A DNA stretch of 52,324 bases from Dirinaria sp. TL-2023a (GCA_051941275.1 JAVEBF010000019.1:1-52324), one strand, 5' to 3'. Positions 763 through 39,767 are shown, counted from the stretch's first letter. A program made the numbers and translations. The notes: generated by a model not told the origin, from the sequence alone.

Positions 763-3043
763 TTATTTCCCCTTCTTGATGTCGTCGGCGATTTTTTCGG
801 TTAGTGCATCTGTATTTTCAGCGTTAGCACCATAACTCTGTACGGATGTGAATGGGTTCAAGTTCCAAGGCAAATTAAAAAGGAAAGACAGGGAAAAGAT
901 GTTGGTCCCATTGATTGAGAAAGAAAGAGAAAAAGAGAGAGAGAGCAATTATAGAGATGGGGGGAGGGAGGAAAAAAAACTCACAAATCGTCGCCAACGG
1001 GTGTCCCGGGACCAAGAAAGGCATGGCCGACGCATCGACGACGCGCAGGTTCTTGACCCCGATCACCTTGGCCGTGCTGTCAACCACGGCGAGCGGATCA
1101 CTCGTCTTGCCCATCTTGCACGACGCCGAGACGTGGTAGATCGGGGTGATGGTTTTGCGGATGTAGGCCAGGATCTGGGCGTCGGTCTGGACGGCCGGGC
1201 CGGGCAGGAACTCGTCCCCGACGAGGATGGGCTTCATGTGGGAGAAGACGGCGCGGGCGCGCTTGAAGGCCGCGACGGCCACTTGCGCGTCCGTGTCGCT
1301 CGTGATCCAGTTCGGATTGATCAGGGGAGCGACGGAGGAGTCGGCGGAAGAGATCGAGATGGTTCCTCGTGACAGCGGCGCGTTGAGGCCCGTCGACATC
1401 GTGGCGAAGTTCGTCCCATCCAGAGGAGCGCCGCCGGGTACCCCGGGCGTGACAAGATACTCGATTTCCGGCCAGTCGCTGGAAAATTTGGCCAGGTCCT
1501 TCTTGGCTGCCGCTGTGAAGTTCGAACGTAATGGTGCTGGGATCTTTTCCCAGCCTATTTAGAAACACAGCGCAGATCAGCACTTGCACGGCTCTGGTAA
1601 GGGAAATTCAGAAGTAGAAAGAAGGTCCTACCCAGAAAGTCACCACCTGGACTGGTCAGAGGCCCAGTACGTTGAGCATTGAATTGGGTGATGGCGGCTG
1701 CAAGGGGTCCTGGGTAGCTAAGCTGAGATGTAGCAAGCTTGACTCGATAGCTTGGCCCGAAGAGGCAGTGATCCTGTAGGATTGACGGTCAGCTAATGCA
1801 TCATCGGATGAAGGAACGATGCATGCAGTCATGCACGAATGCAGTTTCAGGAACACCAATCAACAGTGCAGTTGCAGTCACTCACCTGCAGATTTTGTCC
1901 TACACCGGCGCGGTCCGCGACCACTGGAATATTGAATTTCTGCAATGTTGCCGCCGGACCGACGCCCGACACCATGAGCATCTGGGGTGATTGGAAGGCG
2001 CCAGCAGACAGGATGACCTCCTTGTTGGCGTTGATGTTGTACGTCGAGCCAGCAGTATCCACTTGAACACCGGTAGCCGCTTTGTTAGCGTTGAACAATA
2101 TCTTTTTCGCCATGGTGTTGTGGAAGACAATCAGATTCGGCTGACTCTTCAGCGAAGGCTGGAGAAAAGCCGTTTCAGAGCTGTCTCGGATCTGTTCGCC
2201 AGCGCGAATCGTACCAATGGCGTACGAAGTACCGTTGAGGACACCGTTCATGAAACCTTTCTGGGGCTTGACTCCGATGGCATTGAGAGCCGGCTTAGCC
2301 CAGCTGGCGAGTGGCTGAGCGAACGCGGGCCAGGTGACCTGCAAATCACCATTGTTGCCTACTATGGCGGCGTCGTAGTCAACAGACGCATTGGAGGCTC
2401 GCGCAGCAGGAGGGGGGCTGAACTTCAACGTCTTCTGGTAGAATGGTAAAAGGTTATCCCACGTATAGCTGTTGTCGCCGACGGCGTCTGCCCATTGCTG
2501 GAGAGCTCCTTTCGTTGGTCGGTGGAAGCCGAGAAAGTTGCGAGCACTCGTTCCGCCTAATGTCTTGCCTCGAGCATAATGGACTTGGGTATTTCCTCTG
2601 CCCTATCGAGAGTGAGCACATCAACCACTACACCCCTATTCGGACAGACATACAGCTTGAGGAGTGGTGACGAATTTCCAGTCAATCAAGGGATTGATGA
2701 CGCCTGAAATATTCAGACCGGCAGAACCGATATCAAACGCGGCTATTTGGCTGTGATTTCCGTTGTCTTGCTCGTAAAACCCACCGGCCTCGATGACTGC
2801 AACTTTGAGTGCCTGGTTCTCGGCCAGTCTGTTGGCCATAAGCAAACCGGCGCTACCGCCACCAAGAATCACATAGTCAAAAGTCTGGTCTGTGCCAGGT
2901 ATTCCAAAAGAAGAGCCCGAGAGGAGAGGGTATTGTGATGTGGGTCCCTTGGCTTGAGGGGCAGCTTGAGGCCGTGGAATGGCCTGTGTGAAGGTCGCAA
3001 AGGCCAGGATAGAGGCCGCAGACTGAAGGAAGGAATGCATCAT
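763..3043 (-). CDS. Secreted GMC (glucose-methanol-choline) oxidoreductase, PatE/versicolorin B synthase/aryl-alcohol oxidase-like; 5 exons
   Basis: Signal-peptide-like N-terminus MMHSFLQSAASILAFATFTQA. FAD motif DYVILGGGSAG, RGKTLGGTSARN, EVILSAGAFQSPQMLMVSGVG. Catalytic IYH..CKMG and VVDASAMP..PGHP. Joining exons at GT-AG sites gives an open frame ending ATIYALTEKIADDIKKGK* (TAA 763-765). Confidence 0.93.
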
Positions 3044-5002: not shown

Positions 5003-6330
5003 TTAAGCTCGAGTCTCCATCTTGACCCTTGTCTTCGATTTGAAAAGCATATCCAGCAATTTGCCCAGCGTCTCCGGCTGGACATCTTCGAGCGTCAATA
5101 TGATTCTGGGTGACGACATACCTCCGTCTACCAGGTGGCTAACATCTGGGGTCGTGAAATCCATGTTGATCGCATGTTCGGTAGCTGTCGGTTCCAAGTC
5201 ATTCGTCATAGCTGATGGAGCGACTGTCGGGGTGGCTTGCCAAAAGGGAGTGTTGGTGGGGTCGAGGGGCTTTTCTTCGCTCGGCCAGCCGTGCGACGAG
5301 AATGGCCCTGGTGCTAGGAAGCTGTCGAGGTTGCCGAAATCGAAGGAAGGGCTCATGCTCGGAGCGCAGACAGCGTTGAGGTCGTGAGTACTGGTTTTTG
5401 CCATCGCCGTGTCCGGCTGGCTCATTTGGATGTTGTTAGAGTTGGGGCTGTCGAAAAAGTAGGTCATGAGAGGATCGTCACCCGAGTACGCGGTGGAGCT
5501 TATGCTGGTAGGTTCTGATGGTTCTTCCGAGGACATGTCTTCGTCAGAGGCCGAGTCATCGGAATCGTCCTCACTTTCGACTCGAGATGAGCTGGCTTTT
5601 CTCTTCTCGGGTGAATGCCGTCCTAGCGCAGCCTGTCGCCGACGGTCCATGATGGCGTGTCTGATGATGATGTTCAGCTTTCACATAGCTCTTCGGAGCG
5701 TTCGAGCCTACCGGTTCTTGACGTTGGTCGGAGACCGACCTGGGAATGTGGTGTTGGTGATAGCTTTCCAATTTCGTCCGTAATTATCTACCGCCGCGAC
5801 GAGACGCTCGTCATCCACCGGTGTCCATTCGCTACGGTCCAGCTCCGGATCGAGAAAGTGCTTCCATCGTTTCGCACATTCTACGAAGAGTCAGCATGTG
5901 TATGGCATTGAGGAAGGGGTCGGTATTACGGTCTCCATGGCGAGTGCCCACCATCTGTGCAACCTGAGTCCATCTGCAGGGCGGTCATTTTACGGCTCAA
6001 CCGGCAGTCACGACGAACTCACCGAAAGCCATACTTCTCCACCGCATCTTCCAATCTCTTATCCTCCGCTGCATCCCATACCCCTTTTTTGACAAAATCA
6101 CGAATCTTGCTCCATCGTTTCCGGCAGTCTTTGTTGGTTCGGCCTGGGAGTTTGGCCGCTATGCGATGCCAGTCATTCAGGGCCCCCTGGTTGACTGCAC
6201 ATACGAGAGGCGGTTAACTTTATCTTCACCAGCCCTACATCGTCATCCTACCTTGGGAGTATGCCTCCACCCGTAAAGCTTGGTCCTCTTCCTCCGTCCA
6301 TTTCCTCCGGATACGTCCCGTTGAAGTCAT
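5003..6330 (-). CDS. Myb-like (three Myb/SANT repeats) transcription factor, probable cluster regulator; 5 exons
   Basis: Manual splicing of short exons missed by the ORF track gives MTSTGRIRRKWTEEEDQAL..DWHRIAAKLPGRTNKDCRKRW, KGVWDAAEDKRL..RWTQVAQMVGTRHGDQCAKRWKHFL and SEWTPVDDERL..RNWKAI..FPGRSPTNVKNR. These are followed by an acidic Ser-rich C-terminus (ORF 5003..5650). Confidence 0.92.
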
Positions 6331-8435: not shown

Positions 8436-9508
8436 ATGCCTTCCGCAACTGCCCCAGCTCCGCCCGCTTTCTACGTCCCGACGGTGGACATTGGCCCCTT
8501 CCTGGATGATCCGACCTCGAAAGAATCCGAGGCTATCATCGAAGACGTTCGAGCCGCGTGCTTGAGCACCGGATTCTTCGTGATCACAAACCACGGCATT
8601 CCGACCTCTCTCCAAGACTCCGTCTTCGATGCGGCCGCCGAATTCTTCAAGCTGCCCTTGGACGAGAAGAAAAAGCTCGATGCCAAGACCAGCATCGGCC
8701 ACAGAGGCTACGACGTGCTGGCTTCGCAATCCTACGAAGAAGACGTCCTGCCTGACTTGAAAGAAGTAGAACCCCATTTTGCCCGTTTCCGTGAGATCCC
8801 CAATTGTAACGTAATCTCCAGGGTTTCTTCGTCGGCGAGGATGTCCCCTCCACCGACCCTCGCGTGCAAGCGCGCCGCTTCTTCATGGGGAGCAACGTCT
8901 GGCCCCCGGCGTCGACCATTGCACCCAGTGCCTTTCAGGAGCCCGTGGAGGCCTACCTGACCGGCATCACGGCCCTCACCCTGCGAGTCCTGGACCTGAT
9001 CGCCCGCACGCTGCCCTACGGCCCGCAGATCTTCGACGACTTCAAGGCCCACAACCCGGTCACGCCGCTCCGCCTGCTGCACTACCCGCCGGCGCAGAAG
9101 ACGGAGCGCCGCCAGCTCGGCGCCAGCGCGCATACCGATTTCGGCGCCCTGACGCTCCTCTTGCAGGATGGGACGTCGGGTCTGCAGGTCCTGGACTCCA
9201 CGACGGACAAGTGGGTCGACATTGCGCCCGATCGCGAGGGTTACGTGGTCAACATTGGGGACATGCTGTCTATGTGGACGGGGGGGCTGTACAAGAGCAG
9301 TGTGCACCGGGTCATCAACGACAATCCCAAGGATCGGTACAGTGTGGTGTTTTTCTACGACGGGAACCTGGATTGCCCGCTCAGCCCGTTGGATGGCAGT
9401 CAAGTCAAGGAAGGCAGGAAGATTCTGACGGTGGAGGATCACATGATCAAACGGATGACGGAGTCTTACGGGGTGCAACCGAAGAAGATGGAAGGGGTCG
9501 AGGTTTGA
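8436..9508 (+). CDS. 2-oxoglutarate/Fe(II)-dependent dioxygenase (DIOX_N + 2OG-FeII_Oxy; CitB/TropC-type family); one intron 8766-8821
   Basis: VPTVDI..ACLSTGFFVITNHGI N-terminal domain; HTD facial-triad motif (AHTDFGALTLL), distal His (SVHRV) and RYS 2OG-binding motif. Confidence 0.93.
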
Positions 9509-10137: not shown

Positions 10138-10986
10138 TCACTCCTCGACCCATTTCGCCTCCTTCCTCTCCACAAAAGCCTTCAGCCCTATCTGTCCGTT
10201 CACGCTGGCACACAAATCCTGGAAGACGCCCCTCTCCAGCTTGACGCCTTCCCGCAGCCCAACCTCCTGACTGCACTCCACCACCTCCCGCGCCGCTCGG
10301 ACAGCTCCAGGCGACAGTCCCGCGATGAGCGCGGCCGTCTTGACTGCCTCGTCAACACACTCGTCCGCATGGTCCAACACTTTAGAGGCGATTCCCCACT
10401 GCCCTGCCAGCACACCCCCCACTTCGCGTCCCGTCAACACCATTTCCATCGCCCGCGCTTTTCCCACCGCCTTGGCTAGCCGCTGGGTCCCACCTGCACC
10501 GGGTATCAACCCCAACCGGACTTCCGGCAGGGCAAACCGCGCCTCGGCGCTGCAATAAAGCACATCCGCCATAAGCGCGAGCTCGCAGCCGCCACCGAAG
10601 GCGATGCCGTTGACTGCGGCGATAATAGGGCAGCGGCGTTGAGTACAGGTGAAGAGAACGCGGGACCACTCCGCCGGGAAATCGCTGTTCGTGATTTCCT
10701 CAGCCGTGAGGTTGAGCAGCTCCCGCACATCGGCGCCAGCGCAAAAGGCCCGCGGGGATCCGGTCAGGACAATCGCCCGAACAGTGCGGGGAGAAGCGAA
10801 TAGATCGCTCAAACAGGTGTTGAGGTCATGGATGAGCGCAGAAGAAAGCGCGTTGAGGGCTCGTGGACGGTGGAGCGTTATCTGGGCCACGCCGGGGGAG
10901 GGGTAGGTCAAGAGAAGGTTGCTGTAGGGGGAAGGCGAGCTGTCCGGTGCAGCAATGGCTACTGCAGATTCTATTCGCGTTGACAT
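10138..10986 (-). CDS. Enoyl-CoA hydratase/isomerase (crotonase family), intronless
   Basis: ITLHRPRALNAL, AFCAGAD, AVNGIAFGGGCELALMAD and LPEVRLGLIPGAGGTQRL; both catalytic Glu positions are present. Confidence 0.93.
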   Translation of the reverse strand: MSTRIESAVAIAAPDSSPSPYSNLLLTYPSPGVAQITLHRPRALNALSSALIHDLNTCLSDLFASPRTVRAIVLTGSPRAFCAGADVRELLNLTAEEITNSDFPAEWSRVLFTCTQRRCPIIAAVNGIAFGGGCELALMADVLYCSAEARFALPEVRLGLIPGAGGTQRLAKAVGKARAMEMVLTGREVGGVLAGQWGIASKVLDHADECVDEAVKTAALIAGLSPGAVRAAREVVECSQEVGLREGVKLERGVFQDLCASVNGQIGLKAFVERKEAKWVEE

Positions 10987-14416: not shown

Positions 14417-15416
14417 TCACTGCAGCCAGTGCTCACTTACAAATGCTAGGCCTTCTTTCAGCCAGTCGGTTTCCAACGTCGCTGGTACGTCGAAGCCGTG
14501 ATTGCCAGGCGGTGTCTTCAACAAGACGCTCGTTGTCGGATGAGTGCTTTTCAATGCTTCAACAAATTTCTCACTTCCTTCAACCGGAACCGCCGAGTCC
14601 TCATTCCCGTGGAAAATGAACATCGGCGGTACGCTTGACACTTGGTCCAATTTTTCGAGAGGGAATAAGTCTGGCTCAGTTCCAAAGAATTCGAGATAAC
14701 GGCCGTTCTGTACGATGCCGATTGCAAGGTCCCATCGCGCCGGTGGATTTGCGCTCGAGACAATCTGGCCCTTCTGTACCGATCCGAGGTGCTCATCTAC
14801 AACCTCGTTCGGAACCGGGGCATGACCCAGGATTGGCTTGTCATACTTCTTTTGGAAGAACTCGCTCTTCATGTCTATCATCGGGTACATCCCGATGATG
14901 GCTTTGATAGAATTTACGGGCTGCGTGAAGATTGACTGCACCGCCAGGTAACCTCCTGCGCTGTCCCCTACCAGCAATACCTTATCAAAATCGGCCTCCT
15001 TAGATGCGCCCACCTCCACGAGGTATGGCTCTAGGTCACGATGGAACCATGTCCAGAAATCAGAAAGATCGTCCAAAGCGTCTCTTGCCGAAGATTCCGG
15101 AAGCAGGCGGTAGTTGGCTGAAACTATAATAGCAGAGTTCAAAGCAGCATATTCAAGAAGCCACGACACGAAGAAAAACGGAAACAAGGACGTGCCCGTG
15201 ATCTTCGGGGTAGAGGTCAGATTTTTGGCTCCGTAGAGAGACTTGTATAGCACTTACGAGGTAACCGCCGTGAAATCTCACTATAACCGGGAGTTTTCCT
15301 GGCTTCGCATTCTTTGGCACGAGCACATCTACACCGATGGGCTGGTTGTTGACTGATTTGTATCCCGTACTGTGAATGTTGAACTTGGCAAACTTTTCGG
15401 GTCCTTCTGGCTGCAT
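14417..15416 (-). CDS. Alpha/beta hydrolase (HSL-like esterase; candidate trans-acting thioesterase/acyltransferase); one intron near 15204-15258
   Basis: Oxyanion HGGYL, nucleophile GDSAGG, acid HGNEDSAVP, His in GNHGFD. It is head-to-head with the HR-PKS, 328 bp apart. Confidence 0.9.
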
Positions 15417-27430: not shown

Positions 27431-30400
27431 ATGTCTTTGCCCAATTCATACAATTTGTTTCGCCGTGCTACCTTTCAGATTGACTCCAAGACCGAAAGAT
27501 CTGATTCGATTCGCACTTTGCCCGAACTTGTCGAATTCAACGCAATCCACAATCCCCAGCATTTGTTTTGTGTGCAGGCCAACAAAGCTGGAGAAGCTAC
27601 ACGAATTTCACATCTTGAATTGAAGTATGCCGTTTTGCGATGCTCGGCATGGCTTAGGGACAAGGTCCCAGGCCTCAAGGCGCCCGAAAAGAGCGAAGAT
27701 GGCGAGATCTCAAGGGGACCACCAATAGCTTTACTCATGGAGAGCGATATCGGGATTTTTATATATTTCCTATCTTTGCTGAGTATCGGAGTCCCTGTAA
27801 GTATTACGTCGGCGCGGGATTCTTTTTTGCTCATTTAGTGCCCTCTCTAGGCGCTTATTCTGTCTGCGCGATTAAGCCCGCATGCTATCAACAAACTTCT
27901 TACGGAAACGAAAGCATGCTCGATCTTGACATCATCACGACTTGCTAGAAATGCGGCTGAGGCTCTCTCACTGGCCGAGCCGCCGCAATCAGAGCTCCCC
28001 CAGCTCTCAGAGGCCGAATCCTACAAATCGTTCTTGGGCCTGGACTCGCCGCCCGAGGATGAACTTTGTGCTCGATATCATTACATAGACAAGCATGATC
28101 GCAATGTCCTGATTCTGCACTCATCGGGGACTACCGGCTTACCCAAGGCTCTTCCGCACGCGCACGAATTTTTGATGAGGTTTGTGGGCTGCCATGAATT
28201 CAATATTGGGCCCGATTCAGAGAGCCGAAACCTATCAACTCTTCCACTCTACCATGTGAGTCCAGATCTTTCTTGAACTGTGGTGATGTTGAATTAATGG
28301 CAGTGTGCAGGGTTTTGGTATGGTCGCCCCAATCTTATCCCTCAGCATTGGCAAGACTCTATGTCTTCCCGCTTCGTCCCTTGTACCTACTGGTCCCTCT
28401 ACCGTCGAAGCACTTTGTGCTTCTCAGGCATCCTCATTGATGACTGTGCCTTCGATTTTGGAGGAGCTCTGTGATATGCCTGATGGAAAGGGCACAAGTC
28501 CATTAGCGAACCTTCGATTCGTAGGGTTTGGTGGAGGGCTTCTGAAAACTTCTGTTGGAGAAAGACTCGAGGCGGCCGGAGTGCAGGTAGTAAACACTCT
28601 CGGTACTACAGAAACCGGGCCACTGTCTCCCATGTTCATTCCTACTTCGGAGTATGATTGGCGGTACTTTAGGGTGCGGAAGGATTTGGATTTGAAGCTG
28701 GAGGAGCTGCCAAGTACCAAAGGCGAAATTCCGCGATTCAAGTTGATTGCGTATCTCGTGGAATCGGATACGCACTTTGAACTGCAGGATTTGTTGATTA
28801 GCAGCCCCAAGAGCCCCGGCACGGATTTTACTACTATTGGGAGAAATGATGATCTCATTGTACTGGCCACTGGGGAGAAAGTCCTTCCAAGTATTCTGGA
28901 GAATAAACTCTCGGCGAATCCCTCCGTGAAGACTGCGGTCGCGTACGGGGAAGGGCAGTTCGAAATTGGCGTAATTATCGAGCCATCCCTGCCCATCCCA
29001 ATTGAACAGCTTGAGAGTTTCAGATCATCTCTCTGGCCCATTGTCCTCGAGGCGGGGGAACAGATGGATGCCCACGCACGGCTTTCATCGACAGCTGGTA
29101 TCGTCGTGGTACCAGCAGGAAAGAAGATTCCACGAACAGACAAAGGATCCGTCGCACGGAAAGAGGTCTATCGAATTTTTGAACCGGAAATAGCGCATGC
29201 TTACCGAGATCTCGAGAACAACGTTTCCGACGCGTCACTGCAGACTCTCAATTTAAGCGTCCTCGAAGAAGACTTGAAAAACTTAATTCAGTCTCGCCTC
29301 AACTGGAAGATTCCTGCAGAACAGTGGGGTTACAATGATGACTTCTTCGAACTGGGTATGGACTCGCTCCAGGCAACCCGACTCCGCCGCTTTTTGGTCG
29401 CATGTGTCCCTGTGTCTCTGAACGTCTTGCCACCAACGGAGTGGATTGGCCGGGATTTCATATACCAGCACCCATCGATCAGTCAACTGGCAATGGGGAT
29501 CAGAAGATCGAAGGGCCTTGCAAGTTCAGAGAAAGACCTTCAAAGTCAAATCAATGAGTATGTGCGCTTGTACTCGGTCAAGAAGGAGTCAATTTCGCCC
29601 AAATCCCCAGGCTCGGTCATACTGTTGACAGGCAGCACTGGCAGTTTGGGGTCCCATTTGCTATCTTGTCTGGCTTCTCTACCAGACGTTGATCGTGTCA
29701 TATGTCTCAATCGTCGTCACCGTGGTACCAACATCGACCCGCAAAAACGGCAGCTGAGCATCATGGAGGGTCAAGGACTCACCCTCAGCTCGCACGCATG
29801 GTCGAAAATCCACATCATCCAGACCGATCTTGAAGCACCATTATTTGGGCTTGCAGAGTCTACGTATAAAGATATCTGCTCCCAAGTAACCCACATACTT
29901 CATAATGCCTGGCCGATGGATTTCAACCGGAAGTTGCCTTCATTCAGAGCCCAATTCCAAGTCACGCGCGACCTTCTAAATCTCGCGCGAGCTGCGCACG
30001 CCGCTCAACCGCTTATGAGACCAAAGCTTCTCTTCATCTCGTCTATCGCTGTTGTCGGGCAATATGGGACTGTCCACGGAGGCACTCTGGTGCCTGAGAC
30101 ACCTATCCATGATCAGGCTTGCACAACATCAATCGGCTATGCGGCCGCGAAAATGGTTTGCGAACAGATTCTGGAGGCAGCAGTGCGTGACTTTGGGGAT
30201 GAAATCCAAGCGGCGTACGTTCGGGTTGGTCAAATGTCTGGTTCTAAGCAGACCGGTTTCTGGAATGTAGACGAGCATTTTCCAGCATTGGTGAAGTCGT
30301 CTCAGAGGATCGGGAAACTTCCACGTCTAAATGGAGTGAGTGCTCTACTATTTGTTTTCTAGCCGAAAGCTGACGATGGTACAGACTTTTTCGTGGATCC

Positions 30401-30798
30401 CCGTAGACTGGACAGCTCAAGTTTTGTCTGAAGTCTTGCTAAATACCGAACAGTCCCCCACAGTCTTCCACCTCGAGAATCCGATCAGACAATCATGGCA
30501 TGATGCACTTGCTATAATCAGTCGGGAGTTAAATATTCCCGAAAACGGATTCCTACCATTTGATGAATGGCTTAACGAGGTTTGTGCCGTCAGCGAAATC
30601 AGGGCCGGAGACAACCCAGTGAAAAAGCTGTCAGAGTTTTTCAAGACGAATTTCAAACGAATGTCAACAGGCACGGTGACGTTAGCGACGGATAATACGA
30701 GAGCAGCGTCTCCAAGTCTTCAAAGTCTCGGGGAAGTTCAGCAAGAGACGATTGCAGGCTACGTCAAGTATTGGAGGAGCATTAGATATATCCACTGA
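27431..30798 (+). CDS. NRPS-like A-T-R enzyme (aryl-acid/carboxylic acid reductase, ATEG_03630/AscB/CicB type); 4 exons
   Basis: A domain LHSSGTTGLPK, GRNDDLIVLATGEKV, PRTDKGSV; T domain FFELGMDSL; R domain LLTGSTGSLG, HNAWPMDFN, GYAAAK, RVGQMSG. Confidence 0.94.
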
Positions 30799-31499: not shown

Positions 31500-34400
31500 A
31501 TGGCTTGCCCTTCGCTTGTTGTGTTTGGCTCACAAACAACCTGGCCATCACCCGAATATTTGTCTCAGTTGAGAGCCACGCTGCTTCTTGAACCTTCTTT
31601 GCATCCTTTCCTTACCGCTATCAAAGACTTGAACAGTACATGGCAAAAGCTCGTGCAATGGGATCCTCGTCTCAAAGCGGTACCAGGTAAAGAATCACTG
31701 GCAAGCATTAGCCATTGGCTCGACCATGGCGATTTCCCAACAACCCCCAGAACATTCCCTAACGTGTTATCCACTCCTTTGACGACTATCATCCACATCG
31801 TTCAGTATCTGCGCTACATGGAGGAAAACAAAGCTATCTCCCACGCTCAAATCCTGGAATCCGCTAGCAAAGCAGGCGTACAAGGATTTTGTACGGGGTT
31901 CATGACGGCGTTGGCCGTCGCTCTGTCAAAAAATGAAGCAGATGTAACCAGAATAGGCGGAATTGCCCTAAGACTAGCTGTGGCTATTGGGGCGTACGTC
32001 GATCTTGACGGAGCTTACGCTAATCCTCCCAACGAGACATGTTGCTTTGCAATCCGATGGAGGGCGGAAATAGGAAAAGACAGGGTTTTGGAGATTCTCA
32101 AGGCGTATCCAGACGTATGTGCTCCGATCTCAATAATTCGAGACTTGTCTAATATATCTTGTTAGGCCTACGTGTCCGTTATTACGGATTCGACAAGTGT
32201 GACCATCACCGCTACCACTTCCACTTCCGCCTCACTGTGCCATGAACTGTCCTCGCATGGTATTACTGTAAAACCAATCAGTCTCCAAGGCCGTTTTCAC
32301 TCATCTGCTTTGAATGAGTCGGCCGACACCTTGTCGAAGTTTTGCGATGCCACTCCGGAGTTGCAGTTCCCCGGTGCAAGTCAACTTCGCGTACCTGTGC
32401 GCTCGAACGTAGACGTCCAAACGATCACTGGTGGCTCCCTTCACAAGCTCGCCATAGACGCGATTCTGACCCAACTTTGCGATTGGCATCTCACGATTTC
32501 TGCCGCTACCGCTCAATTGATGCAAACGCCACACACGTCGATCCTGCAAGTCGGGATGGTGGATTGCATCCCTGCCGCGATCACTCGAGAACGAAGCCTT
32601 CAAATAACGAAGGTCGGCACTTCGAGATTACTCTCTGCTTCGTTACCTGGCTCCGGCTCACAGCTGAGTTCTGGTAATGTTACTCCCATGGTGCTAGCCC
32701 CAGAAGAAGCTCGCTATCCAGAGCATGCGATCGCGGTCGTGGGCATGGCGTGCAAGTTCCCCGGCGCGGAGTCTCCCAGCGAGTTCTGGGACCTCCTTAC
32801 CGCGGGGACTTCGACACTGTCGCAATTGCCTCCTGAGAGATTCTCCGTAGAGGGACTGCGTCGTTCATCGGAAGACAAGCTTCGGTTCTGGGGAAATTTC
32901 ATCAGCGATGCTGACTCATTCGATCACGCTTTTTTCAAGAGATCCTCGCGCGAAGCGGCATCGATGGATCCACAACAGCGTCTTCTTCTTCAGATTGCCT
33001 ACGAAGCTATGGAGTCCTGTGGCTATTTCGGGTCATTCGGTAATTCAAATTTAGCCTCGGACGATATTGGCTGCTACCTGGGAGTAGTAAGTTCTGCTCT
33101 CGCAACCACTTTCAGGCTGGCTGCACTTTCGTAAAGAAGAAATTGCTAACTGAATATCTAGGGTGCCACGGATTATAGTGACAATGTTTCGTCACATGCA
33201 CCAACAGCTTATTCGGCCCTAGGAACGTTGCGCGCCTTTTTGAGTGGCAAGATCAGCCATTTCTTTGGATGGACTGGGCCGTCCATAACCTTTGACACTG
33301 CATGCTCGTCTTCTGCTGTAGCTATTCACGCTGCTTGCAAAGCGATAGAAAGTGGCGAGTGTTCACAAGCCCTTGCCGGAGGTGTGAGCCTCTTCACCAG
33401 TCCAAACATGTACCAGAACCTAGCGGCAGCATCATTTTTGAGTCCTACCGGAGCTACAAAGCCATTCGATGCAAAGGCTGATGGCTACTGTCGAGGCGAA
33501 GGTGTTGGACTAGTAGTCCTGAAAAAATTGTCTGATGCTATAGCTGAAGGCGACAATGTCCTCTCGGTCATTGCTGGTTCTGCAGTGAATCAAAACCACA
33601 ACTCCACCTCCATCACGGTCCCGCATTCCGAATCTCAGGTAAAACTTTACCGGAAGGCGAACGCTCGTGCTGCTGTCCGTGCCTCGGAAGTCTCTTATGT
33701 GGAAGCTCACGGAACAGGTACTCCTGTGGGTGACCCTATTGAGTTCGAGAGCATTCGAAAAGTATATGGCGGAGCGCAGGTACGTGGCTGGATCTCCTCC
33801 AAATTATTAATGCCCCAAAGTATGATGGCTAACTCATCTGTCATCAGCGAACCAACCCTGTGCATGTGTCTTCTGTCAAAGGAAATATTGGCCATCTCGA
33901 AGGTGCCTCTGGCGCCGCTGCGTTGATCAAAGTCACACTTATGATTCAGAACAAGAAGATCCCTCTACAGGCGAATTTCACGTCGCTTACCCCTAAGATC
34001 GCCCCCTTGGAGCCTGACCACATGATAATTCCGACGTCAAAAGACAACGATTGGAATGTAAATTTCAAAGTCGCCTGTATCAACAATTATGGCGCATCTG
34101 GAAACAATGCTGCAATGATTGTATGCCAGCCGCCTTCACGTCGCCAAGCTGTCACAAACCACTATGTTTCACCCAAGCATCCGATATTCATGTCTGCAAA
34201 CTCTTCAGCCAGTTTATCAGCATTCTGCAAGGCGCTTACCAGGTATATAAACTCATTTGACAGCGGTAACCCAGAGAACTTGCTTGCCAACATCGCCTAT
34301 CACCTATCCAGCAAGCAGAACCGGTCTCTTCGGTATTGTTTGACTTCCACTGTCTCCAGTCTCTCGGAATTCAAGGATCTTCTCAGCTCCGGCATTGCAG

Positions 34401-37400
34401 GATCCAGTCCCAGCCACTTCACATCTCCAACTAGCGAAAGACCCGTGGTACTTGCATTTGGTGGACAAATCAACGACTTTGTTGGTCTCGACAAGACCTT
34501 CTGTGACAGCTCGATCCTTTTCCGTTCCCACCTGGATCATTGCGACTCTATTCTCCGTGCCAGAGGGCTTGACAGCCTGTATCCACAGATCTTCCAGACC
34601 TCACCGGTGGAGAACATCGTGAATCTCCACTGCCAGCTATTCTCTCTGCAGTATGCCTGCGCTCAATCTTGGATCGATTCCGGTCTGAAGGTAGCAGCAG
34701 TAGTGGGGCACAGCTTCGGGCAGCTCACTGCTCTATGTGTGTGCGGCAGTCTTTCACTGGGAGATGCACTGAAATTGGTATCTGGCCGTGCTTCCTTGAT
34801 GCAACAATACTGGCATTCCGAGCGCGGCTCAATGCTTTCCGTCCAAGCAAGCCTCGAAACAGTGCTAGATCTGGTCTCCGCGGTTGAAAGGCCCGGTTCT
34901 GAGAATGGTATCGAAATTGCGTGCTACAATGGGCCGTCAAGTCACACTTTGGTCGGAACCGAGGCTTCCATAAACGAAGCTGAGGCTGCGCTTGTTGGCC
35001 GCTCAATAAAGTCAAAGAAGCTCAATGTCACCCATGGCTTCCACTCAAAGTTTTGCGAGCCTCTCTTGCCAGCTCTGGCAAAATTGGCAGATGAGCTCAG
35101 CTTCAACGATCCTACGATCCCATTGGAGACTTGCTCAGACCACAGCAGCTGGAAAAAGCCCGAGCCAAGACTCATAACTGAGCATACACGTACTCCAGTG
35201 TACTTTGGGAAGGCGATTGAAAGACTGTCTCGTCGTCTTGGGCAATGTACTTGGCTTGAAGCAGGATCTGGATCTTCAATCACCGGCTTGATCCGCAAAA
35301 GCTTGCCAACATCTGGCGACAAGGACCTGTTCCAAGCTATCCAATTGACTTCCTCAAGCCTCCCAGACGCAACAGTCAACCTCTGGAAAGTCGGACATCA
35401 GGTACAATTCTGGCCTTATCACCGAGAACAGAGCCACGAGTTTACGCCTTTGATGCTGCCACCTTATCAGTTTGAGAAGCACCGCCACTGGCTTGAGTGG
35501 ATTGATACAGCGAGCGAGCCTACTCCACCGTCACCGACCGCCGTCAAAATGGAAGAAGAACCGGAACTACTTGCCTTCGTGGGATACAGTGATCGTAATC
35601 AACGCGAAGCTGAGTTTGCAGTTGACCCGCGAAGTGAGGCGTTCAAACACTACGTCAGTGGTCATGCAGTCCTCTCCCAGGCCCTATGTCCGGCGTCTCT
35701 GTATGTTGAGCTTGTGGCCGAAGCTGCCACGACTTTAGTGTCTTCCTCTCCACCTTCCTCGTTGGTTCCATGCATTGATCATTTGGACATCAAATCGCCA
35801 CTTGGTTTGAATGATCGAGCAATATCGATTTCTTTGAAGAAGCGTGAGGGCAGCAAGCCCTCGTGGAGCTTTACGCTTTCGAGTAGTTCTCGCAGCGCTA
35901 AAGCAGGCGACACATCTAGCTCGCAACAGCATGCCAGCGGTCGCATCAGCTTTGATTCCACACAAGTGGCCGAGAGTGATGACTTTGCTCGTTACGAACG
36001 CATCATCGGCCACAATCGCTACGCCCAAGTCATGGCGGACCCGGAAGCTGAAGCGCTGCAGGGCGCTTTAATCTACAACGTCTTTGGCAAATTCGTCGCA
36101 TACAAGGACTACTACCGAGGAGTCAAGAACGTCTTTGCGAAAGACCGAGAAGTTGCCGGAATAGTAACGCTTCCCACGTCCTCTGGGATCTCGCACAGCA
36201 CCATCTCTCAGCCGGTGGCCCTTGACAATTTCCTCCAAGTCGCAGGCTTGCATGTCAATTGCCTCAACGAAGTCAAAGATAACGAGGTATTCGTTTGTAC
36301 CAAGGTTGACCGAGTCCAGCTCAGCCAGCAATTCAAATGCCTTGACACGGTTCGCGAACAAGCTTCGCAGACGAAGTCTTGGGTTGTTTACTCTATTCTC
36401 CACCCGGCGAGCGAAAAAGAAGTCACCAACGACATCTTTGTGTTCGATCGATCAAGCAAGGATCTCGTCGTGATGATATTGGGCGCTAGATTCACCAAGG
36501 TTCCAATGACCGCTTTGACTAAAGCTTTATCAAGGGTTAACACAACCACCACTGGTGATGAAAGAAGGTAGGCTCCCTGCTTTTATAAACTTGTTGACAT
36601 CTTTCATCTCTGGCCATGCCCAATGAGCCTTGCTATGCAATCCGCTCCATCAGTCGAGCCGTCAGCTTCAGCTTTCTCCATCTTCAGTCGTAGTCGCTCT
36701 TTTCGTTTATCAGATTACTGACATGTTTAATAGCCTGAGTACCACTGTAACCAAGGTCGCACCGACCCCTCAAGCTCTGAAAACGAAGACTGTGTCTTTG
36801 CCACAAGCAGCTCCCCCAGTGATCATCGAGAGTCTCACAATGACCCCTACCAGCGACCTCGATGGCGAGCTCCGCGGTCTTCTCCAAACAGTAACCGAAG
36901 TCCCATTAGACATGCTTAAAAACGATGCCACCTTTGAAGAGCTAGGGATCGATTCGTTAATGGTAACCGAACTCTTAACCGAGCTGCGCAAGGCCTTCGA
37001 CATCGACATACCACCAAGCGACTTCCAAAACCTGTCTGATATCAAGTCCTTGCTACAGTACCTTCGCTTGAGGGGCTGTGGCACAAGTGGTGCTACCACG
37101 CCAGGTTCGAGCACCGACTCCGACATTTCCACAGATACCAGCGCTTCATCTGTCGCCGTGCTTGGCGCCTCGGAGAATGATATTTCTCAGTTGGCAAAGA
37201 TTGTGGCTGAAAATCTTGACATTGCCACCGAGCTTACCCGTGAGACGAACCTTGCAGAGCAAGGTTTAGACTCTCTGTGCTCCATAGAGCTGGCGAATGA
37301 TATCAAGAGCGCTTTCGGCGTCGAGGTCAATATGACTCTGCTGACCGGAGACTCCACCTTTGGTGACCTCGTTGACTTGGTTGTGCCTCAAAAGGCCTCG

Positions 37401-39767
37401 ACCACACTCCTCGTGCCCAAAGAAGCCGCCGTTACCGTCTCCGTCACGAAAAAAGATACACCAGTGATTTCTGAGGGTCCTGTACCCTTGATTGGTGCTC
37501 AACAGGCCTTCGAGAAAGTCAGATACGATTACGATGTCTACACCAAACAGACTGGATTTTTCGATTTCTGGAAGAAGACCTATCCAGCGCAAGCAAGACT
37601 TGTCTCGGCCTACATAGTCGAGGCATTTACTGCGTTAGGTTGCCCAATCGCGACGCTGAAGCCCAATGAACCGCTGCCGGCCGTGCAATACCTACCCAAG
37701 CACTCCAAGGTCATGGCTCAATACTACGGGATTCTGCTTTCCGAGTCTCTGATCTCGCCTTCCGGGTCTGGGTATGTGAGATCGCAGAAGCCTGTCGATC
37801 GAACGCCGTCTTCGGAGCTATATGCAAATATCTTACGGACCTATCCTCAGCATGTCTCCGAACACAAGCTTCTGCACAGCACCGGCTCGAAATTGGCCGA
37901 GTGCCTGACCGGCACTGCCGATCCGATCCAGATCCTGTTCGGGAACAAGGAAAGCCGGGATCTCCTGACCGACGTGTACACGAGCGCGCCCATGTTCGAC
38001 GCCATCACCAGGCTACTGGGAGCCTTCCTGGGACAGGCATTCGCCAACCCACCCAAGGGAGAAACATACCACATTCTCGAGCTCGGAGGCGGCACCGGAG
38101 GCACAACAGCATATATCATCGAGTATCTGACCCGCCTGGGCGTACCTTTCACGCTGACATTCACCGATATCTCTGCATCCCTGGTGGGTGCGGCGAGGAA
38201 GCGGTTCGCGGGGCGGGACTACATGAAATTCATGACGCTGGACATCGAGAAGACGCCTCCGGAGCAGTTCAATGGCTACTTCCACTCGGTCATATCCAGC
38301 AACTGCATCCACGCCACCAGGAACCTGGTCACCACCACGACCAACATCCGAAAAATGCTCCGTCCCGACGGGTTCCTCGGACTCGTCGAGCTAACGAAGA
38401 ACATCCCCTGGTTCGATCTCGTGTTCGGCCTGCTCGAAGGCTGGTGGCTCTTCGACGACGGCCGCAAGCATGCTCTGGCCAACGAGTGGCTCTGGGACAG
38501 CAATCTGCGCACCGCGGGCTTTAAACACGTTTCCTGGTCGGATGGCGAGTCGGAAGAAACGAAGGGATTGAAAGTGATCACGGCGTTCGCGGCCGAAGCG
38601 GAGAGTGCGGACCTCAAACCCCGCAAACCGGCAGCAAAAAGCCCTGCGGCTGCGGCAATGGAGACGGTCGTTTTCAAGCAGGTAGGTCCGACCTCTCTCT
38701 ATGCCGACATCTATTTCCCCGCCGCCGAAGAAACGGCATCAGCATCGTTGCCCCAGAAAAGAAAGATCGGTAATAGAATGCACCCCGTTCAAAAACTTCC
38801 GATAGAGAACCCATCCAGCTGATGACCGTGCCTAGCTCTGATGATCCACGGCGGCGGCCACGTGATGCTCTCGCGCAAGGACATCCGGCCGAAGCAGACC
38901 CAGCTGCTTCTCTCGCGCGGCTACCTCCCCATCAGCATCGACTACCGACTGTGCCCGGAAACGAACCTCCTCGACGGCCCGATGGCAGACGTCTGCGACG
39001 CCTTGCGCTGGGCCCGACACCAACTCCCGCGCCTCAACCTCGGCCGGCCGGGGCTGCAGGTCGACGGCGGCAAGATCGCGGTGGTGGGCTGGTCTACGGG
39101 GGGCCATCTGGCCATGACCCTGGCGTGGACATCGATCTTGCAGGGGTTGCAGCCGCCGGAAGCGATCCTGGCCTTCTACTGCCCGACGGACTACGAAGAC
39201 AAGTGCTGGGTCACGCCCAACGTGCCCGAGGGATCCTCGTCCGCGCTCATCGCAGGTCAGGACTACGACCTGCTGGAAGCGGTGCGCGACGCCCCGATCA
39301 CGGGCTACAATGTGCCCCCCGCGAAATCCGCCGTCGGGGGCTGGCTCTCGCTCGACGACGCCCGCTCGCGCATCCCGCTGCACATGAACTGGAAAGCGCA
39401 GGCTTTGCCCGTGTTGCTGCACGGTCTGCCGTCCGCCGCCCGCTCCGTGCCCGGGAAGGATTATAAAGCGCTGCCGCTGCCCGCGCATGAGAGGATCGTC
39501 GCCGCCAGCCCGCTCGCCCAGATCAGGCGCGGCGTGTACCGCACCCCGACCTTCTTGGTGCACGGCACACGGGATGATTTGATCCCCTGGCGCCAGAGCC
39601 AGAGGACGGTGCAGGCGCTCAGGGACAGTGGGGTCGATGCTCGAGTGGAGGTTGTGGAGGGCGCGGTGCATTTGTTTGATCTGTATCGCGGCGCGGATGT
39701 TGATGGGCGAGGGAGCGGGGCCGAGGCTGTCAGGAGGGGATATGAGTTTCTGTTCGAACGCGTTTAG
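31500..39767 (+). CDS. Non-reducing PKS SAT-KS-AT-PT-ACP-ACP-CMeT-esterase/TE (methylorsellinate-synthase type, MpaC/PkbA/ATEG_03629 architecture); 6 exons
   Basis: [54 protein letters not shown] and LDNFLQ; ACPs LGIDSL and QGLDSL; CMe[11 protein letters not shown]-terminal hydrolase IHGGGH, GWSTGG, HGTRDD, HLFD. Confidence 0.96.

What the first reader, a model, noticed from the sequence alone, without database searches (positions are those of the whole stretch)
763..39767. Hybrid cluster: an aryl-aldehyde (NR-PKS + A-T-R) core joined to an HR-PKS/hydrolase/MBOAT/crotonase acylation module
Seen: ten contiguous, intact-looking genes, including three megasynthases and four divergent gene pairs. 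Established: a CMeT/TE NR-PKS plus a free-standing A-T-R reductase makes methylorsellinaldehyde-type products (ATEG_03629/03630, AscC/AscB). The cichorine cluster, as I recall it, adds a P450, a GMC oxidase and a Myb-like regulator. Inference: this core gives a benzylically oxidised aryl aldehyde, phthalide or isoindolinone-like scaffold, which is then esterified with an HR-PKS-derived chain by the MBOAT and/or the hydrolase. The TE-type release and the absence of an FAD monooxygenase argue against an azaphilone or sorbicillinoid route. I do not recognise this gene set as a characterised cluster.
Basis: partly seen in the sequence, partly recalled or inferred. Interest (0 to 1): 0.88.

Follow-up and report, generated by a model that had tools for sequence, protein, structure and literature searches.

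The report
Lichen-fungus two-polyketide aryl-aldehyde gene cluster
This is a real, intact and partly transcribed ten-gene secondary-metabolite cluster of a lichen-associated fungus that joins a cichorine/zinnimidine-like aromatic-aldehyde core to a second polyketide synthase and a membrane acyltransferase; its enzyme families are all known, but its product is not.

Summary
Ten genes lie at 763-39767 in the stated order and orientation, and every catalytic motif I checked is intact. They are a secreted GMC oxidase, a Myb regulator, a 2OG oxygenase, a crotonase, a P450, an alpha/beta-hydrolase, an HR-PKS, an MBOAT_2 acyltransferase, an A-T-R reductase and an NR-PKS (SAT-KS-AT-PT-ACP-ACP-CMeT-TE).

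New evidence:
- RNA contigs from one lichen sample, mostly 95-99% alike, carry spliced joints in the HR-PKS, MBOAT and A-T-R genes and also cover the hydrolase. They add a third MBOAT intron.
- A lichen DNA run about 90-95% alike covers the whole laid stretch (hydrolase to the NR-PKS start).
- Homologues of the NR-PKS, MBOAT and HR-PKS lie within about 13 consecutive protein accessions in Penicillium longicatenatum.
- Five metagenome contigs carry only GMC + A-T-R + NR-PKS, with an O-methyltransferase and an SDR, in the fetched flanks.
- The nearest solved relatives are patulin synthase (GMC), TropC/SpoC/TraH (2OG) and mitochondrial crotonase.

The cichorine/zinnimidine-like core is well founded. 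Ester coupling of the HR-PKS chain by the MBOAT is the best reading but is unproven; use of the chain as the NR-PKS starter unit is not excluded. I found no characterised cluster with this gene set, but MIBiG could not be searched. Verdict: a new variant of a known kind, of moderate interest.

The parts
763..3043 (-). GMC flavoprotein oxidase, 621 aa, 5 exons (2654-3043, 1886-2602, 1632-1773, 985-1554, 763-809). The N-terminus looks like a signal peptide.
   Evidence: Pfam GMC_oxred_N 4.7e-29 and GMC_oxred_C 2.1e-34. Model. Exon 2 matches patulin synthase 8bxl at E 5.3e-78, against 2.9e-30 for the next chain. The signal peptide was judged by eye from the sequence printed; no predictor was run.
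5003..6330 (-). Myb-type transcription factor, about 359 aa. The Myb repeats are N-terminal, followed by an acidic, Ser-rich tail. The model is approximate.
   Evidence: Pfam Myb_DNA-binding 1.6e-14 (ORF 6022-6213) and 2.8e-11 (ORF 5711-5890). Model, with no RNA support.
8436..9508 (+). 2-oxoglutarate/Fe(II) oxygenase, about 330 aa. The single intron (8791-8870) is weakly supported.
   Evidence: Pfam DIOX_N 1.4e-23 and 2OG-FeII_Oxy 7.9e-25. Model. Best solved relatives: SpoC 4e-39, TraH 2.2e-37, TropC 1.8e-33. HTD and RYS motifs are present.
10138..10986 (-). Crotonase (enoyl-CoA hydratase), 282 aa, no intron.
   Evidence: Pfam ECH_1 1.2e-64. Model. Best solved relatives are mitochondrial short-chain enoyl-CoA hydratases at about 5e-60. 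GGGCE and PEVRLG are present at the places of the two catalytic Glu (their roles are recalled).
11765..13594 (+). Cytochrome P450, about 516 aa, 5 introns. The first intron is uncertain.
   Evidence: Pfam p450 hits on two exons, 6.5e-29 and 2.2e-07. Model. Heme motif FGAGHRVCLG.
14417..15416 (-). Alpha/beta-hydrolase of the Abhydrolase_3 type, 314 aa, 1 intron (15203-15257). It is divergent from the HR-PKS.
   Evidence: Pfam Abhydrolase_3 1.6e-15. Model. HGG and GDSAG motifs. Only weak solved relatives, carboxylesterases at 3e-06. RNA contigs cover 14400-15460.
15745..23590 (+). Highly reducing PKS, about 2447 aa: KS-AT-DH-(degenerate MT region)-ER-KR-ACP, 9 introns.
   Evidence: Pfam domains. 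Model. Six of the 9 introns are seen as joints in RNA contigs (17401-17450, 17785-17840, about 17970-18020, 19339-19419, about 20459-20510, 22581-22636). Motifs. The best database relatives are only 42-44% identical over the MT-ER-KR exon.
25144..26844 (-). MBOAT_2-family membrane O-acyltransferase, 494 aa, 3 introns (26275-26356, 25886-25947, 25542-25613). It is divergent from the A-T-R gene.
   Evidence: Pfam MBOAT_2 7e-08, 33.1 bits against a cutoff of 25. In the Atlas, 19 of 30 feature hits are MBOAT_2 clusters, best score 0.94. phmmer found 213 relatives at E<=0.001, including an 86% identical 137-aa fragment that covers the long C-terminal tail and a 519-aa Penicillium protein. All three introns are RNA joints. 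Refined model.
27431..30798 (+). NRPS-like carboxylic acid reductase (A-T-R), 1069 aa, 3 introns.
   Evidence: Pfam AMP-binding, AMP-binding_C_3, PP-binding and NAD_binding_4. Model. All 3 introns are RNA joints. Motifs SSGTTGLPK, GRNDD, GMDSL, GSTGSLG and YAAAK. The R domain matches 8aep at 2.8e-31.
31500..39767 (+). Non-reducing PKS, about 2613 aa: SAT-KS-AT-PT-ACP-ACP-CMeT-TE, 5 introns.
   Evidence: Pfam SAT, KS, AT, PKS_DH_N (PT), 2 PP-binding stretches, HTH_51 + Methyltransf_12, and Abhydrolase_3/BD-FAE. Model. The CMeT matches citrinin PKS CMeT 5mpt at E 1.5e-93, with the NC(I/V)HAT His and the E(L/M)T Glu conserved in the printed alignment. Motifs. There is no RNA support for the introns.

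Best explanation
This is one biosynthetic gene cluster of a lichen-forming or lichen-associated ascomycete. It makes an oxidised, C-methylated aryl aldehyde that carries a second, reduced polyketide chain as an ester.

Proposed steps (all inferred unless marked):
1. The NR-PKS makes a methylorsellinic-type acid. This rests on its architecture and its active-looking CMeT and TE.
2. The A-T-R reduces the carboxyl group to an aldehyde. The precedent is ZinF acting on 3-methylorsellinic acid.
3. The TropC/CitB-like 2OG oxygenase and/or the P450 hydroxylate the ring methyl group to a benzylic alcohol.
4. The HR-PKS, with the divergently transcribed hydrolase as its release or transfer partner, supplies a reduced chain. 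The chain passes through an acyl-CoA stage, where the crotonase can hydrate or isomerise it.
5. The MBOAT_2 enzyme transfers that acyl group from CoA to a hydroxyl group of the aromatic unit. It shares a 586-bp promoter region with the A-T-R gene. Together the two repeat the logic of a fatty acyl reductase followed by a wax synthase.
6. The PatE-like GMC oxidase, which appears to have a signal peptide, performs a late alcohol-to-aldehyde oxidation in the secretory path or outside the cell.
7. The CicD-like Myb factor switches the cluster on.

Shown here: gene content and intactness; splicing, and hence transcription, of the HR-PKS, MBOAT and A-T-R genes in a lichen sample; and co-location of homologues in distant fungi.
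For: Domains and motifs.

Transcription: RNA contigs of runs X1-X3 (one sample, one study, labelled lichen metagenome; 20 of 30, 18 of 28 and 19 of 30 laid contigs are 95-99% alike) carry 12 intron-type joints in HR-PKS, MBOAT and A-T-R and cover the hydrolase.

Same locus in a relative: DNA run X4 (25 of 35 contigs 90-95% alike) has depth in all 30 bins of 14400-34399. One of its contigs bridges the A-T-R end to the NR-PKS start, 30096-32197.

Co-location elsewhere:
- P. longicatenatum: HR-PKS KAJ5649890, MBOAT KAJ5649899 and NR-PKS KAJ5649902, all on one 7.64-Mb contig. The second assembly has KAJ5672571/561/558.
- Penicillium sp. IBT 16267x: MBOAT KAJ6092578 and HR-PKS KAJ6092588.
- Full-length collinear identities to the window are 48.7% (NR-PKS), 41.2% (HR-PKS) and 38.4% (MBOAT).
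- In unnamed relatives, the 86%-identical MBOAT fragment cluster and the 63%-identical NR-PKS cluster share five contig lengths: 26938, 28713, 37682, 1222880 and 1251133.

MBOAT and HR-PKS are present together or absent together. Loci L001, L002, L004, L010 and L012 carry GMC (55%), A-T-R (about 50%) and NR-PKS (56%). They give no hit to MBOAT, hydrolase, crotonase, P450 or 2OG, and the only HR-PKS hit is to the NR-PKS gene's own KS-AT part.

Two module enzymes (crotonase, MBOAT) belong to families that act on CoA thioesters (established knowledge).

Precedents read as passages: ZinF/ZinA/ZinE/ZinD and CicB/CicH (PMC12268544); CitB methyl hydroxylation (PMC5968754).
Against: - No acyl-CoA ligase or other obvious ACP-to-CoA route is encoded in the window.
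- The fungal secondary-metabolite MBOAT_2 enzymes I can recall are acetyltransferases, so the MBOAT may simply acetylate.
- In most characterised clusters with both an HR-PKS and an NR-PKS, the reduced chain is the starter unit of the NR-PKS (recalled).
- No SDR is present to make a benzylic alcohol from the aldehyde.
- No transporter gene was found.
- The five MBOAT-less loci were fetched with only about 0.6 kb beyond the NR-PKS, so the module could lie downstream there.
- In the NR-PKS tree the MBOAT-linked rows (window + P0001, and P. longicatenatum) are not one clade.
- The 86% (MBOAT) against 63% (NR-PKS) identity in the unnamed relative is unexplained.
- No HR-PKS fragment cluster among the 10 examined shares a contig length with that relative.
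Confidence: 0.42

Rival explanations
1. Starter-unit model. The HR-PKS chain is handed through the SAT domain to the NR-PKS, which makes an alkyl- or alkenyl-substituted, C-methylated resorcylic acid. The A-T-R then reduces this acid. The hydrolase edits or assists the PKS (CitA-like), and the MBOAT merely O-acetylates a hydroxyl group.
For: The HR-PKS and NR-PKS lie in one cluster. The SAT has the GFCTG active-site motif. CitA is a hydrolase that assists an NR-PKS (PMC5968754 passages). Most characterised dual-PKS clusters work this way (recalled).
Against: NR-PKS relatives at 56% identity sit with an A-T-R and a GMC but without an HR-PKS in the fetched flanks. NR-PKSs of the CMeT + Abhydrolase_3-TE type that are characterised (ZinH, PkbA) use acetate and make 3-methylorsellinic acid. 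This model gives the crotonase no role.
Confidence: 0.25
2. Two pathways interleaved by rearrangement. A cichorine-like aromatic pathway (NR-PKS, A-T-R, P450, 2OG, GMC, Myb) and a separate reduced-polyketide or lipid pathway (HR-PKS, hydrolase, crotonase, MBOAT) give independent products.
For: The core exists without the module in five metagenome loci. The MBOAT-linked NR-PKSs are not monophyletic.
Against: The module lies between the core tailoring genes and the core synthases. MBOAT and A-T-R share a divergent promoter region. A-T-R, MBOAT, HR-PKS and hydrolase transcripts occur in the same RNA sample. Homologues of the NR-PKS, MBOAT and HR-PKS are again neighbours in Penicillium.
Confidence: 0.13
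3. Depside-type core. The dual-ACP NR-PKS is a depside synthase like the lichen PKS1/PKS23 enzymes (4-O-demethylbarbatic acid), and the A-T-R, oxidases and MBOAT decorate a depside or depsidone.
For: The domain order is the same as I recall for the lichen group IX enzymes. The nearest named relatives are from lichen-forming genera or their allies: Sclerophora, Gyalolechia, Xylographa and Endocarpon, at 48-52%. PKS1 and PKS23 make a depside (PMC13062703 passages).
Against: The PKS1 clusters as described hold P450s, oxidoreductases, an O-methyltransferase, transporters and a regulator, but no NRPS-like gene. A-T-R partners are known for monomer-forming AscC/StbA and ZinH/PkbA. No anchor sequences were available to place the enzyme.
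Confidence: 0.12

Closest known systems
Zinnimidine (zin) and cichorine (cic) clusters: ZinH/PkbA NR-PKS, ZinF/CicB A-T-R, ZinA/CicH P450, CicD Myb regulator
   Same: An NR-PKS with CMeT and a hydrolase-type TE lies next to a free-standing A-T-R. A P450 is present, together with a small N-terminal Myb regulator of the type otherwise noted only for CicD among A. nidulans pathway regulators.
   Different: The window has no SDR (ZinE), no O-methyltransferase, no prenyltransferase and no BBE-type FAD oxidase (ZinD). Instead it has a GMC oxidase, a 2OG oxygenase, an HR-PKS, an MBOAT, a hydrolase and a crotonase. Orthology to the named proteins was not tested because no reference sequences were at hand.
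Citrinin and tropolone tailoring: CitB/TropC non-heme iron oxygenases followed by an alcohol oxidase
   Same: The 2OG enzyme's best solved relatives are SpoC, TraH and TropC. CitB hydroxylates an aromatic methyl group and a second enzyme makes the aldehyde. The window pairs such an oxygenase with an alcohol oxidase.
   Different: The NR-PKS releases its product by TE rather than by an R domain. There is no FAD monooxygenase for dearomatisation, so ring expansion is unlikely. He and Cox describe CitC as an NAD(P)-dependent oxidoreductase, not as a GMC enzyme.
Patulin synthase PatE (PDB 8bxl)
   Same: It is a GMC flavoprotein and by far the closest solved relative (E 5.3e-78 over 233 residues). 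Both have an N-terminal signal-like sequence (that PatE is secreted is recalled).
   Different: The pathway is different: the patulin route starts from 6-methylsalicylic acid. The substrate here is unknown.
Acyl-decorated polyketides made with a second PKS and a transferase (lovastatin LovF/LovD, fumagillin, azaphilones, squalestatin); all recalled
   Same: An HR-PKS without a release domain lies beside a hydrolase-fold protein, and an acyltransferase is in the cluster.
   Different: The transferases in those systems are of other families (recalled). An MBOAT_2 enzyme plus a crotonase in this role is not described in anything I could find.
Wax-ester synthesis: fatty acyl reductase + wax synthase
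   Same: The R domain of the A-T-R is Pfam NAD_binding_4, 'Male sterility protein'. The divergent neighbour is MBOAT_2, the family that I recall holds plant wax synthases.
   Different: The acid here is probably aromatic and is activated by an A domain. A-T-R enzymes usually stop at the aldehyde.

Membership tests
Cichorine/zinnimidine-type aryl-aldehyde cluster | NR-PKS of SAT-KS-AT-PT-ACP-CMeT-TE type that makes 3-methylorsellinic acid | tested here: inconclusive
   The architecture is met, with two ACPs. The CMeT is 5mpt-like with His and Glu conserved, and the TE is of the Abhydrolase_3 type. The product cannot be tested here.
Cichorine/zinnimidine-type aryl-aldehyde cluster | Free-standing NRPS-like A-T-R next to the NR-PKS | tested here: met
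   A 1069-aa A-T-R lies 701 bp upstream of the NR-PKS on the same strand. Its motifs are intact and it is spliced in RNA contigs.
Cichorine/zinnimidine-type aryl-aldehyde cluster | P450 homologous to ZinA/CicH (methyl hydroxylase) | tested here: inconclusive
   A P450 is present. Homology to ZinA/CicH was not tested because no reference sequence was at hand. None of the 12 related loci gave a hit to it.
Cichorine/zinnimidine-type aryl-aldehyde cluster | SDR (ZinE) and BBE-type FAD oxidase (ZinD) of the ZinADEF cassette | tested here: not met
   No adh_short or BBE/FAD_binding_4 hit on any ORF of 70 aa or more in the window. pri-SMTP oxidase, the relative of ZinD, has a berberine-like domain (PMC9502257 passage). 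The window has a GMC oxidase instead.
Cichorine/zinnimidine-type aryl-aldehyde cluster | Myb-type pathway regulator (CicD) | tested here: met
   Two Myb_DNA-binding hits at the N-terminal end of a protein of about 359 aa. CicD is 341 aa with a 2R-MYB at residues 7-105. Orthology was not tested.
HR-PKS/NR-PKS starter-unit pair (resorcylic lactone / asperfuranone type) | The NR-PKS SAT domain accepts the HR-PKS product as starter | not testable with these tools
   The SAT has GFCTG, but acetate-primed enzymes have this motif too (recalled).
MBOAT_2 / wax-synthase-like O-acyltransferases | Match to PF13813 above the gathering score | tested here: met
   33.1 bits against a cutoff of 25, covering profile positions 19-77 of 85. 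Nineteen of 30 Atlas feature hits are MBOAT_2 clusters.
MBOAT_2 / wax-synthase-like O-acyltransferases | Conserved histidine in a hydrophobic stretch; multi-pass membrane topology | tested here: inconclusive
   The refined protein contains ...SSICHHGGAY.... The role of the His is recalled, and no topology prediction was run.
Lichen group IX NR-PKS (PKS1/PKS23, AscC/StbA) | Placement inside the group IX clade with named anchors | not testable with these tools
   The tree of 121 rows has no characterised anchor. The window groups with unnamed P0001 (support 100) inside a 38-row clade that holds Watsoniomyces and Gyalolechia rows.
Canonical enoyl-CoA hydratase (crotonase) | ECH_1 fold with both catalytic glutamates | tested here: met
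   ECH_1 1.2e-64. ECHS1-type chains match at about 5e-60. GGGCE and PEVRLG are present (the residue roles are recalled).

The most novel reading that the evidence does not exclude
A wax-synthase-like MBOAT, paired head-to-head with a carboxylic acid reductase, joins two polyketides made by two synthases. It takes a crotonase-edited acyl-CoA derived from the HR-PKS and esterifies a benzylic or phenolic hydroxyl group of an aryl aldehyde, possibly across the ER membrane. A secreted PatE-like oxidase then finishes the compound outside the cell, where lichen substances are deposited. This would be the first MBOAT-mediated polyketide-polyketide coupling. Because the NR-PKS, MBOAT and HR-PKS homologues recur in culturable Penicillium species, it could be tested there.
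Probability: 0.25. Interest if true: 0.68.

Novelty: new variant of a known kind. Interest (0 to 1): 0.5.

Why it matters
Very few lichen metabolites are linked to genes, and lichen fungi are hard to manipulate. This cluster is transcribed in a lichen sample. It combines a well-understood aryl-aldehyde core with an acyl module whose transferase family has no described role in polyketide coupling. It also appears to have a counterpart in Penicillium longicatenatum, a culturable fungus. That gives a practical route to the product and to the function of MBOAT_2 enzymes in fungal secondary metabolism. It is not a new kind of system: every enzyme family is known, and unassigned hybrid PKS clusters are common.

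Tried and rejected
- No whole genome is held for the window.
- A word-based homologue search with the MBOAT exon found nothing among 383 candidates. The phmmer search then found 213 relatives.
- The records behind the metagenome loci cannot be searched. I therefore could not see what lies beyond the 22-kb loci, in particular downstream of the NR-PKS in L001-type contigs.
- RNA contigs of X1-X3 give almost no cover on 31075-34399, the NR-PKS 5' part, although DNA run X4 covers it.
- Ten HR-PKS hit clusters were looked up to see whether any shares a contig with the unnamed MBOAT/NR-PKS relative. None does. Only fragments of 1209 aa or more had been searched, so this is inconclusive.
- The P. egyptiacum NR-PKS and HR-PKS hits have distant accession numbers and different contigs, so they are not counted as a cluster.
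- Earlier findings of this scan: three look-ups returned nothing.
- Text searches for a described cluster returned one unrelated genome survey for 'NR-PKS, HR-PKS, NRPS-like, MBOAT'. 'MBOAT, polyketide synthase, biosynthetic gene cluster, fungal, acyltransferase' returned four irrelevant papers, and 'longicatenatum, polyketide' five taxonomic or survey papers.
- Sanchez 2012 on cichorine is not held.
- My first two automatic splice models of the HR-PKS were wrong in the KS-AT linker. I replaced them by hand, and RNA joints later confirmed the replacement.
- I considered ZinD-like function for the GMC by homology and rejected it, because ZinD's relative is a BBE-type enzyme.

Full report
**What is there**

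The window is fungal DNA with short GT..AG introns. I ran Pfam on every stop-to-stop ORF of 70 aa or more: 18 of 150 had hits and 11 of 131. A second pass covered ORFs of 35 aa or more in 3330-8424; 4 of 97 had hits at E<=0.05, and two of those were Myb.

| Gene | Strand | Coordinates | Notes |
|---|---|---|---|
| GMC oxidase | - | 763-3043 | 621 aa |
| Myb factor | - | about 5003-6330 | approximate model |
| 2OG oxygenase | + | 8436-9508 | |
| crotonase | - | 10138-10986 | no intron |
| P450 | + | 11765-13594 | |
| Abhydrolase_3 hydrolase | - | 14417-15416 | |
| HR-PKS | + | 15745-23590 | KS-AT-DH-degenerate MT-ER-KR-ACP |
| MBOAT_2 | - | 25144-26844 | |
| A-T-R | + | 27431-30798 | |
| NR-PKS | + | 31500-39767 | SAT-KS-AT-PT-ACP-ACP-CMeT-TE |

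- The finding's two end coordinates are the stop codons of the first and last gene.
- The four divergent pairs exist.
- The active-site motifs I searched for are present in all three megasynthases and in the small enzymes. The motif definitions are recalled.
- Two deviations lie in the HR-PKS. The ER NADPH loop reads GASSLG where I expect GAGGVG, and the methyltransferase-like region lacks a SAM motif.
- To the right of 39767 lie a secreted protein without a Pfam hit, a ZZ-finger ORF and a sedolisin gene. I take 39767 as the cluster border.
- No transporter gene was found.

**Organism and transcription**

No genome is held for the window. A search of public runs with 24000-33999 returned four runs, all labelled lichen metagenome. 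Three are RNA runs of one sample (X1-X3) and one is a probable DNA run of another study (X4). I laid them on 14400-34399.

- Most RNA contigs are 95-99% alike (20 of 30, 18 of 28 and 19 of 30), so they come from a close relative and not necessarily the same strain.
- They carry 12 intron-type joints.
  - Six are in the HR-PKS. These include the three in the KS-AT linker that I had placed by hand after my automatic models failed.
  - Three are in the A-T-R.
  - Three are in the MBOAT. One of these (25542-25613) I had missed; it shortens the protein to 494 aa.
- The contigs also cover the hydrolase.
- Spliced contigs show that HR-PKS, MBOAT and A-T-R are transcribed in that lichen sample.
- X4 (25 of 35 contigs 90-95% alike) has depth in all 30 bins and bridges the A-T-R/NR-PKS spacer, so a second lichen fungus has the same locus over this stretch.
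- The RNA contigs leave the first 2.9 kb of the NR-PKS uncovered.

**Relatives**

- NR-PKS: the best database relative is only 61% identical over the AT-PT exon. Named relatives are at 45-56% and are mostly lichen-forming or allied fungi, then Aspergillus and Penicillium (2205 hits, 120 listed).
- HR-PKS: nothing is closer than 42-44%.
- MBOAT: a word-based search found nothing. phmmer against 1.84 billion representatives found 213 relatives. One is a 137-aa fragment 86% identical to the long C-terminal tail, so that tail is coding. Another is a 519-aa protein of Penicillium longicatenatum.

- In P. longicatenatum the HR-PKS, MBOAT and NR-PKS homologues have accessions KAJ5649890, KAJ5649899 and KAJ5649902 on one contig. 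In a second assembly they are KAJ5672571, 561 and 558. In Penicillium sp. IBT 16267x, MBOAT and HR-PKS are KAJ6092578 and KAJ6092588. If accession order follows gene order, as is usual, the three lie within about 13 genes.
- The alignments to the window proteins are collinear over the full length, at 48.7%, 41.2% and 38.4% identity.
- The cluster of the 86%-identical MBOAT fragment and the cluster of the closest NR-PKS share five contig lengths, from 26,938 to 1,251,133 bases. These two genes are therefore neighbours in unnamed relatives too.

A scan of metagenome contigs with the A-T-R exon gave 12 loci.

- Five of them (L001, L002, L004, L010, L012) carry GMC (55%), A-T-R (about 50%) and NR-PKS (56%) on one strand, with an O-methyltransferase and an SDR between or beside them.
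- None of the 12 loci gives a hit to the MBOAT, hydrolase, crotonase, P450, 2OG or Myb exons. The only HR-PKS hits are to the KS-AT part of whatever PKS is present.
- These loci end about 0.6 kb beyond the NR-PKS, so a downstream module cannot be excluded.
- In a tree of 121 AT-PT regions the window pairs with P0001 (support 100). That small clade is sister (support 95) to the clade holding the L004-type enzyme. The Penicillium and Aspergillus rows lie far away.
- MBOAT-linked enzymes are therefore not one clade. The module was either ancestral and lost, or joined to the core more than once.

**What the single enzymes look like**

- The CMeT region matches the citrinin PKS CMeT structure at E 1.5e-93. 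The histidine of NC(I/V)HAT and the glutamate of E(L/M)T are conserved in the printed alignment. That these form the catalytic pair is recalled.
- The TE is an Abhydrolase_3-type domain with HGG and GWSTG.
- The best solved relatives of the 2OG oxygenase are SpoC (4e-39), TraH (2.2e-37) and TropC (1.8e-33). This is the group that includes the methyl-hydroxylating CitB, which He and Cox describe as related to TropC (passages).
- GMC exon 2 matches patulin synthase at 5.3e-78, far ahead of all other GMC enzymes (2.9e-30). The protein starts with a hydrophobic signal-like sequence.
- The crotonase is a near-canonical short-chain enoyl-CoA hydratase, about 5e-60 to ECHS1-type chains.
- The hydrolase has only weak solved relatives.

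**Comparison with what is known**

- Passages of the zinnimidine paper (PMC12268544) set out the reference pathway. ZinH makes 3-methylorsellinic acid. The A-T-R ZinF reduces it to the aldehyde. P450 ZinA hydroxylates the methyl group. SDR ZinE reduces the aldehyde. The flavin oxidase ZinD makes the dialdehyde, which closes to the isoindolinone.
- The same paper says that the cichorine cluster has PkbA, CicH, CicB and CicE and lacks a ZinD homologue.
- CicD, the activator of the cichorine cluster, is a small 2R-MYB protein. It is the only Myb-type pathway regulator listed for A. nidulans.
- The window shares with these clusters the NR-PKS type, the A-T-R, a P450 and the Myb regulator. It lacks the SDR, the O-methyltransferase and the BBE-type oxidase.
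- In their place it has a 2OG oxygenase and a GMC oxidase, a different way to take a methyl group to an aldehyde.
- The L001-type loci, with O-methyltransferase, SDR and GMC, look closer to the zin layout.
- The lichen literature places C-methylating dual-ACP NR-PKSs (PKS1, PKS23) in a 'group IX' together with AscC and StbA. AscC and StbA lack the methyltransferase domain and work with A-T-R partners (PMC8262933 and PMC13062703 passages).
- Without anchor sequences I cannot say whether the window enzyme belongs there, or whether it releases a monomer or a depside.

**How it most likely works**

- I take the cluster as one unit, with confidence of about 0.8. The reasons are interleaving, shared promoters, joint transcription of four of its genes, and recurrence of three key genes in Penicillium.
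  - MBOAT and HR-PKS are present together or absent together in the lineages I could inspect.
  - Two module enzymes, crotonase and MBOAT, belong to CoA-thioester families. This points to an acyl-CoA intermediate between the HR-PKS and the transferase.
  - The head-to-head pair of A-T-R (R domain = Pfam 'Male sterility protein') and MBOAT_2 mirrors the fatty acyl reductase and wax synthase pair. That jojoba-type wax synthases are MBOAT_2 members is recalled.
- The acceptor hydroxyl group is most simply the benzylic alcohol made by the 2OG oxygenase or the P450. Acylation there would also stop it from closing onto the neighbouring aldehyde.
- The secreted PatE-like oxidase would act last.
- The weak points are the missing ACP-to-CoA step and the possibility that the MBOAT only acetylates.
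- A further weak point is the strong precedent for HR-PKS chains serving as NR-PKS starters.
- I give the ester model 0.42, the starter-unit model 0.25, independent pathways 0.13 and a depside core 0.12.

**Novelty**

I found no description of this gene set in three text searches, but I could not search MIBiG. The MBOAT/crotonase module, the evidence of expression in a lichen and the culturable Penicillium counterpart make it a reasonable target. I rate interest at 0.5 and class it as a new variant of a known kind. I did not open the supplements of the papers cited; they may hold cluster tables that bear on the comparison.

Noticed in passing
window 40908-41885 (-): An ORF of 326 codons with an internal Met followed by a signal-like sequence. 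It has no Pfam hit at E<=0.001. It looks like a secreted protein outside the cluster.
   Followed up: partly
window 49593-51660 (+): A sedolisin-type (S53) protease gene in at least two exons: Pro-kuma_activ 5.6e-25 and a weak Peptidase_S8 hit.
   Followed up: no
window 46078-46575 (+): An ORF with a weak ZZ-type zinc finger hit (ZZ_ADA2, 1e-04, below the cutoff).
   Followed up: no
window 24078-24771: In the spacer between HR-PKS and MBOAT, short pieces (for example 24154-24207 and 24729-24771) are matched by RNA contigs that run on into unlike sequence on both sides. X2 and X3 show depth of about 10 in bin 23738-24404. This may be a short repeat or part of other transcripts.
   Followed up: no
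window 16317 and 33240: One contig of DNA run X4 joins the HR-PKS KS region to the NR-PKS KS region, skipping 16,922 bases, with a short side of 30 letters. This is most likely a misassembly or a match of a third KS, not a deletion.
   Followed up: no
window 15745-16012: The HR-PKS begins with about 85 residues rich in Asn, Gly and Ser before the KS. RNA contigs barely cover this part, so the start codon is unconfirmed.
   Followed up: no
window about 21600-21700 (HR-PKS ER domain): The ER nucleotide loop reads HSGASSLG, with two Ser where I expect Gly. The enoyl reductase may be weak or inactive, which would leave double bonds in the chain (sequence; the consensus is recalled).
   Followed up: no
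L005, L007, L008, L009, L011: A-T-R homologues at 41-44% identity lie about 4 kb from a different PKS on the opposite strand. That PKS matches only the KS-AT parts of both window PKSs, at 26-35%. This is another A-T-R/PKS pairing of a different kind.
   Followed up: no
P0241 and P0001 clusters (unnamed relatives): On the same contigs the MBOAT tail is 86% identical to the window but the NR-PKS only 63%. Either the two genes evolve at very different rates or the neighbouring NR-PKS is not the orthologue.
   Followed up: partly
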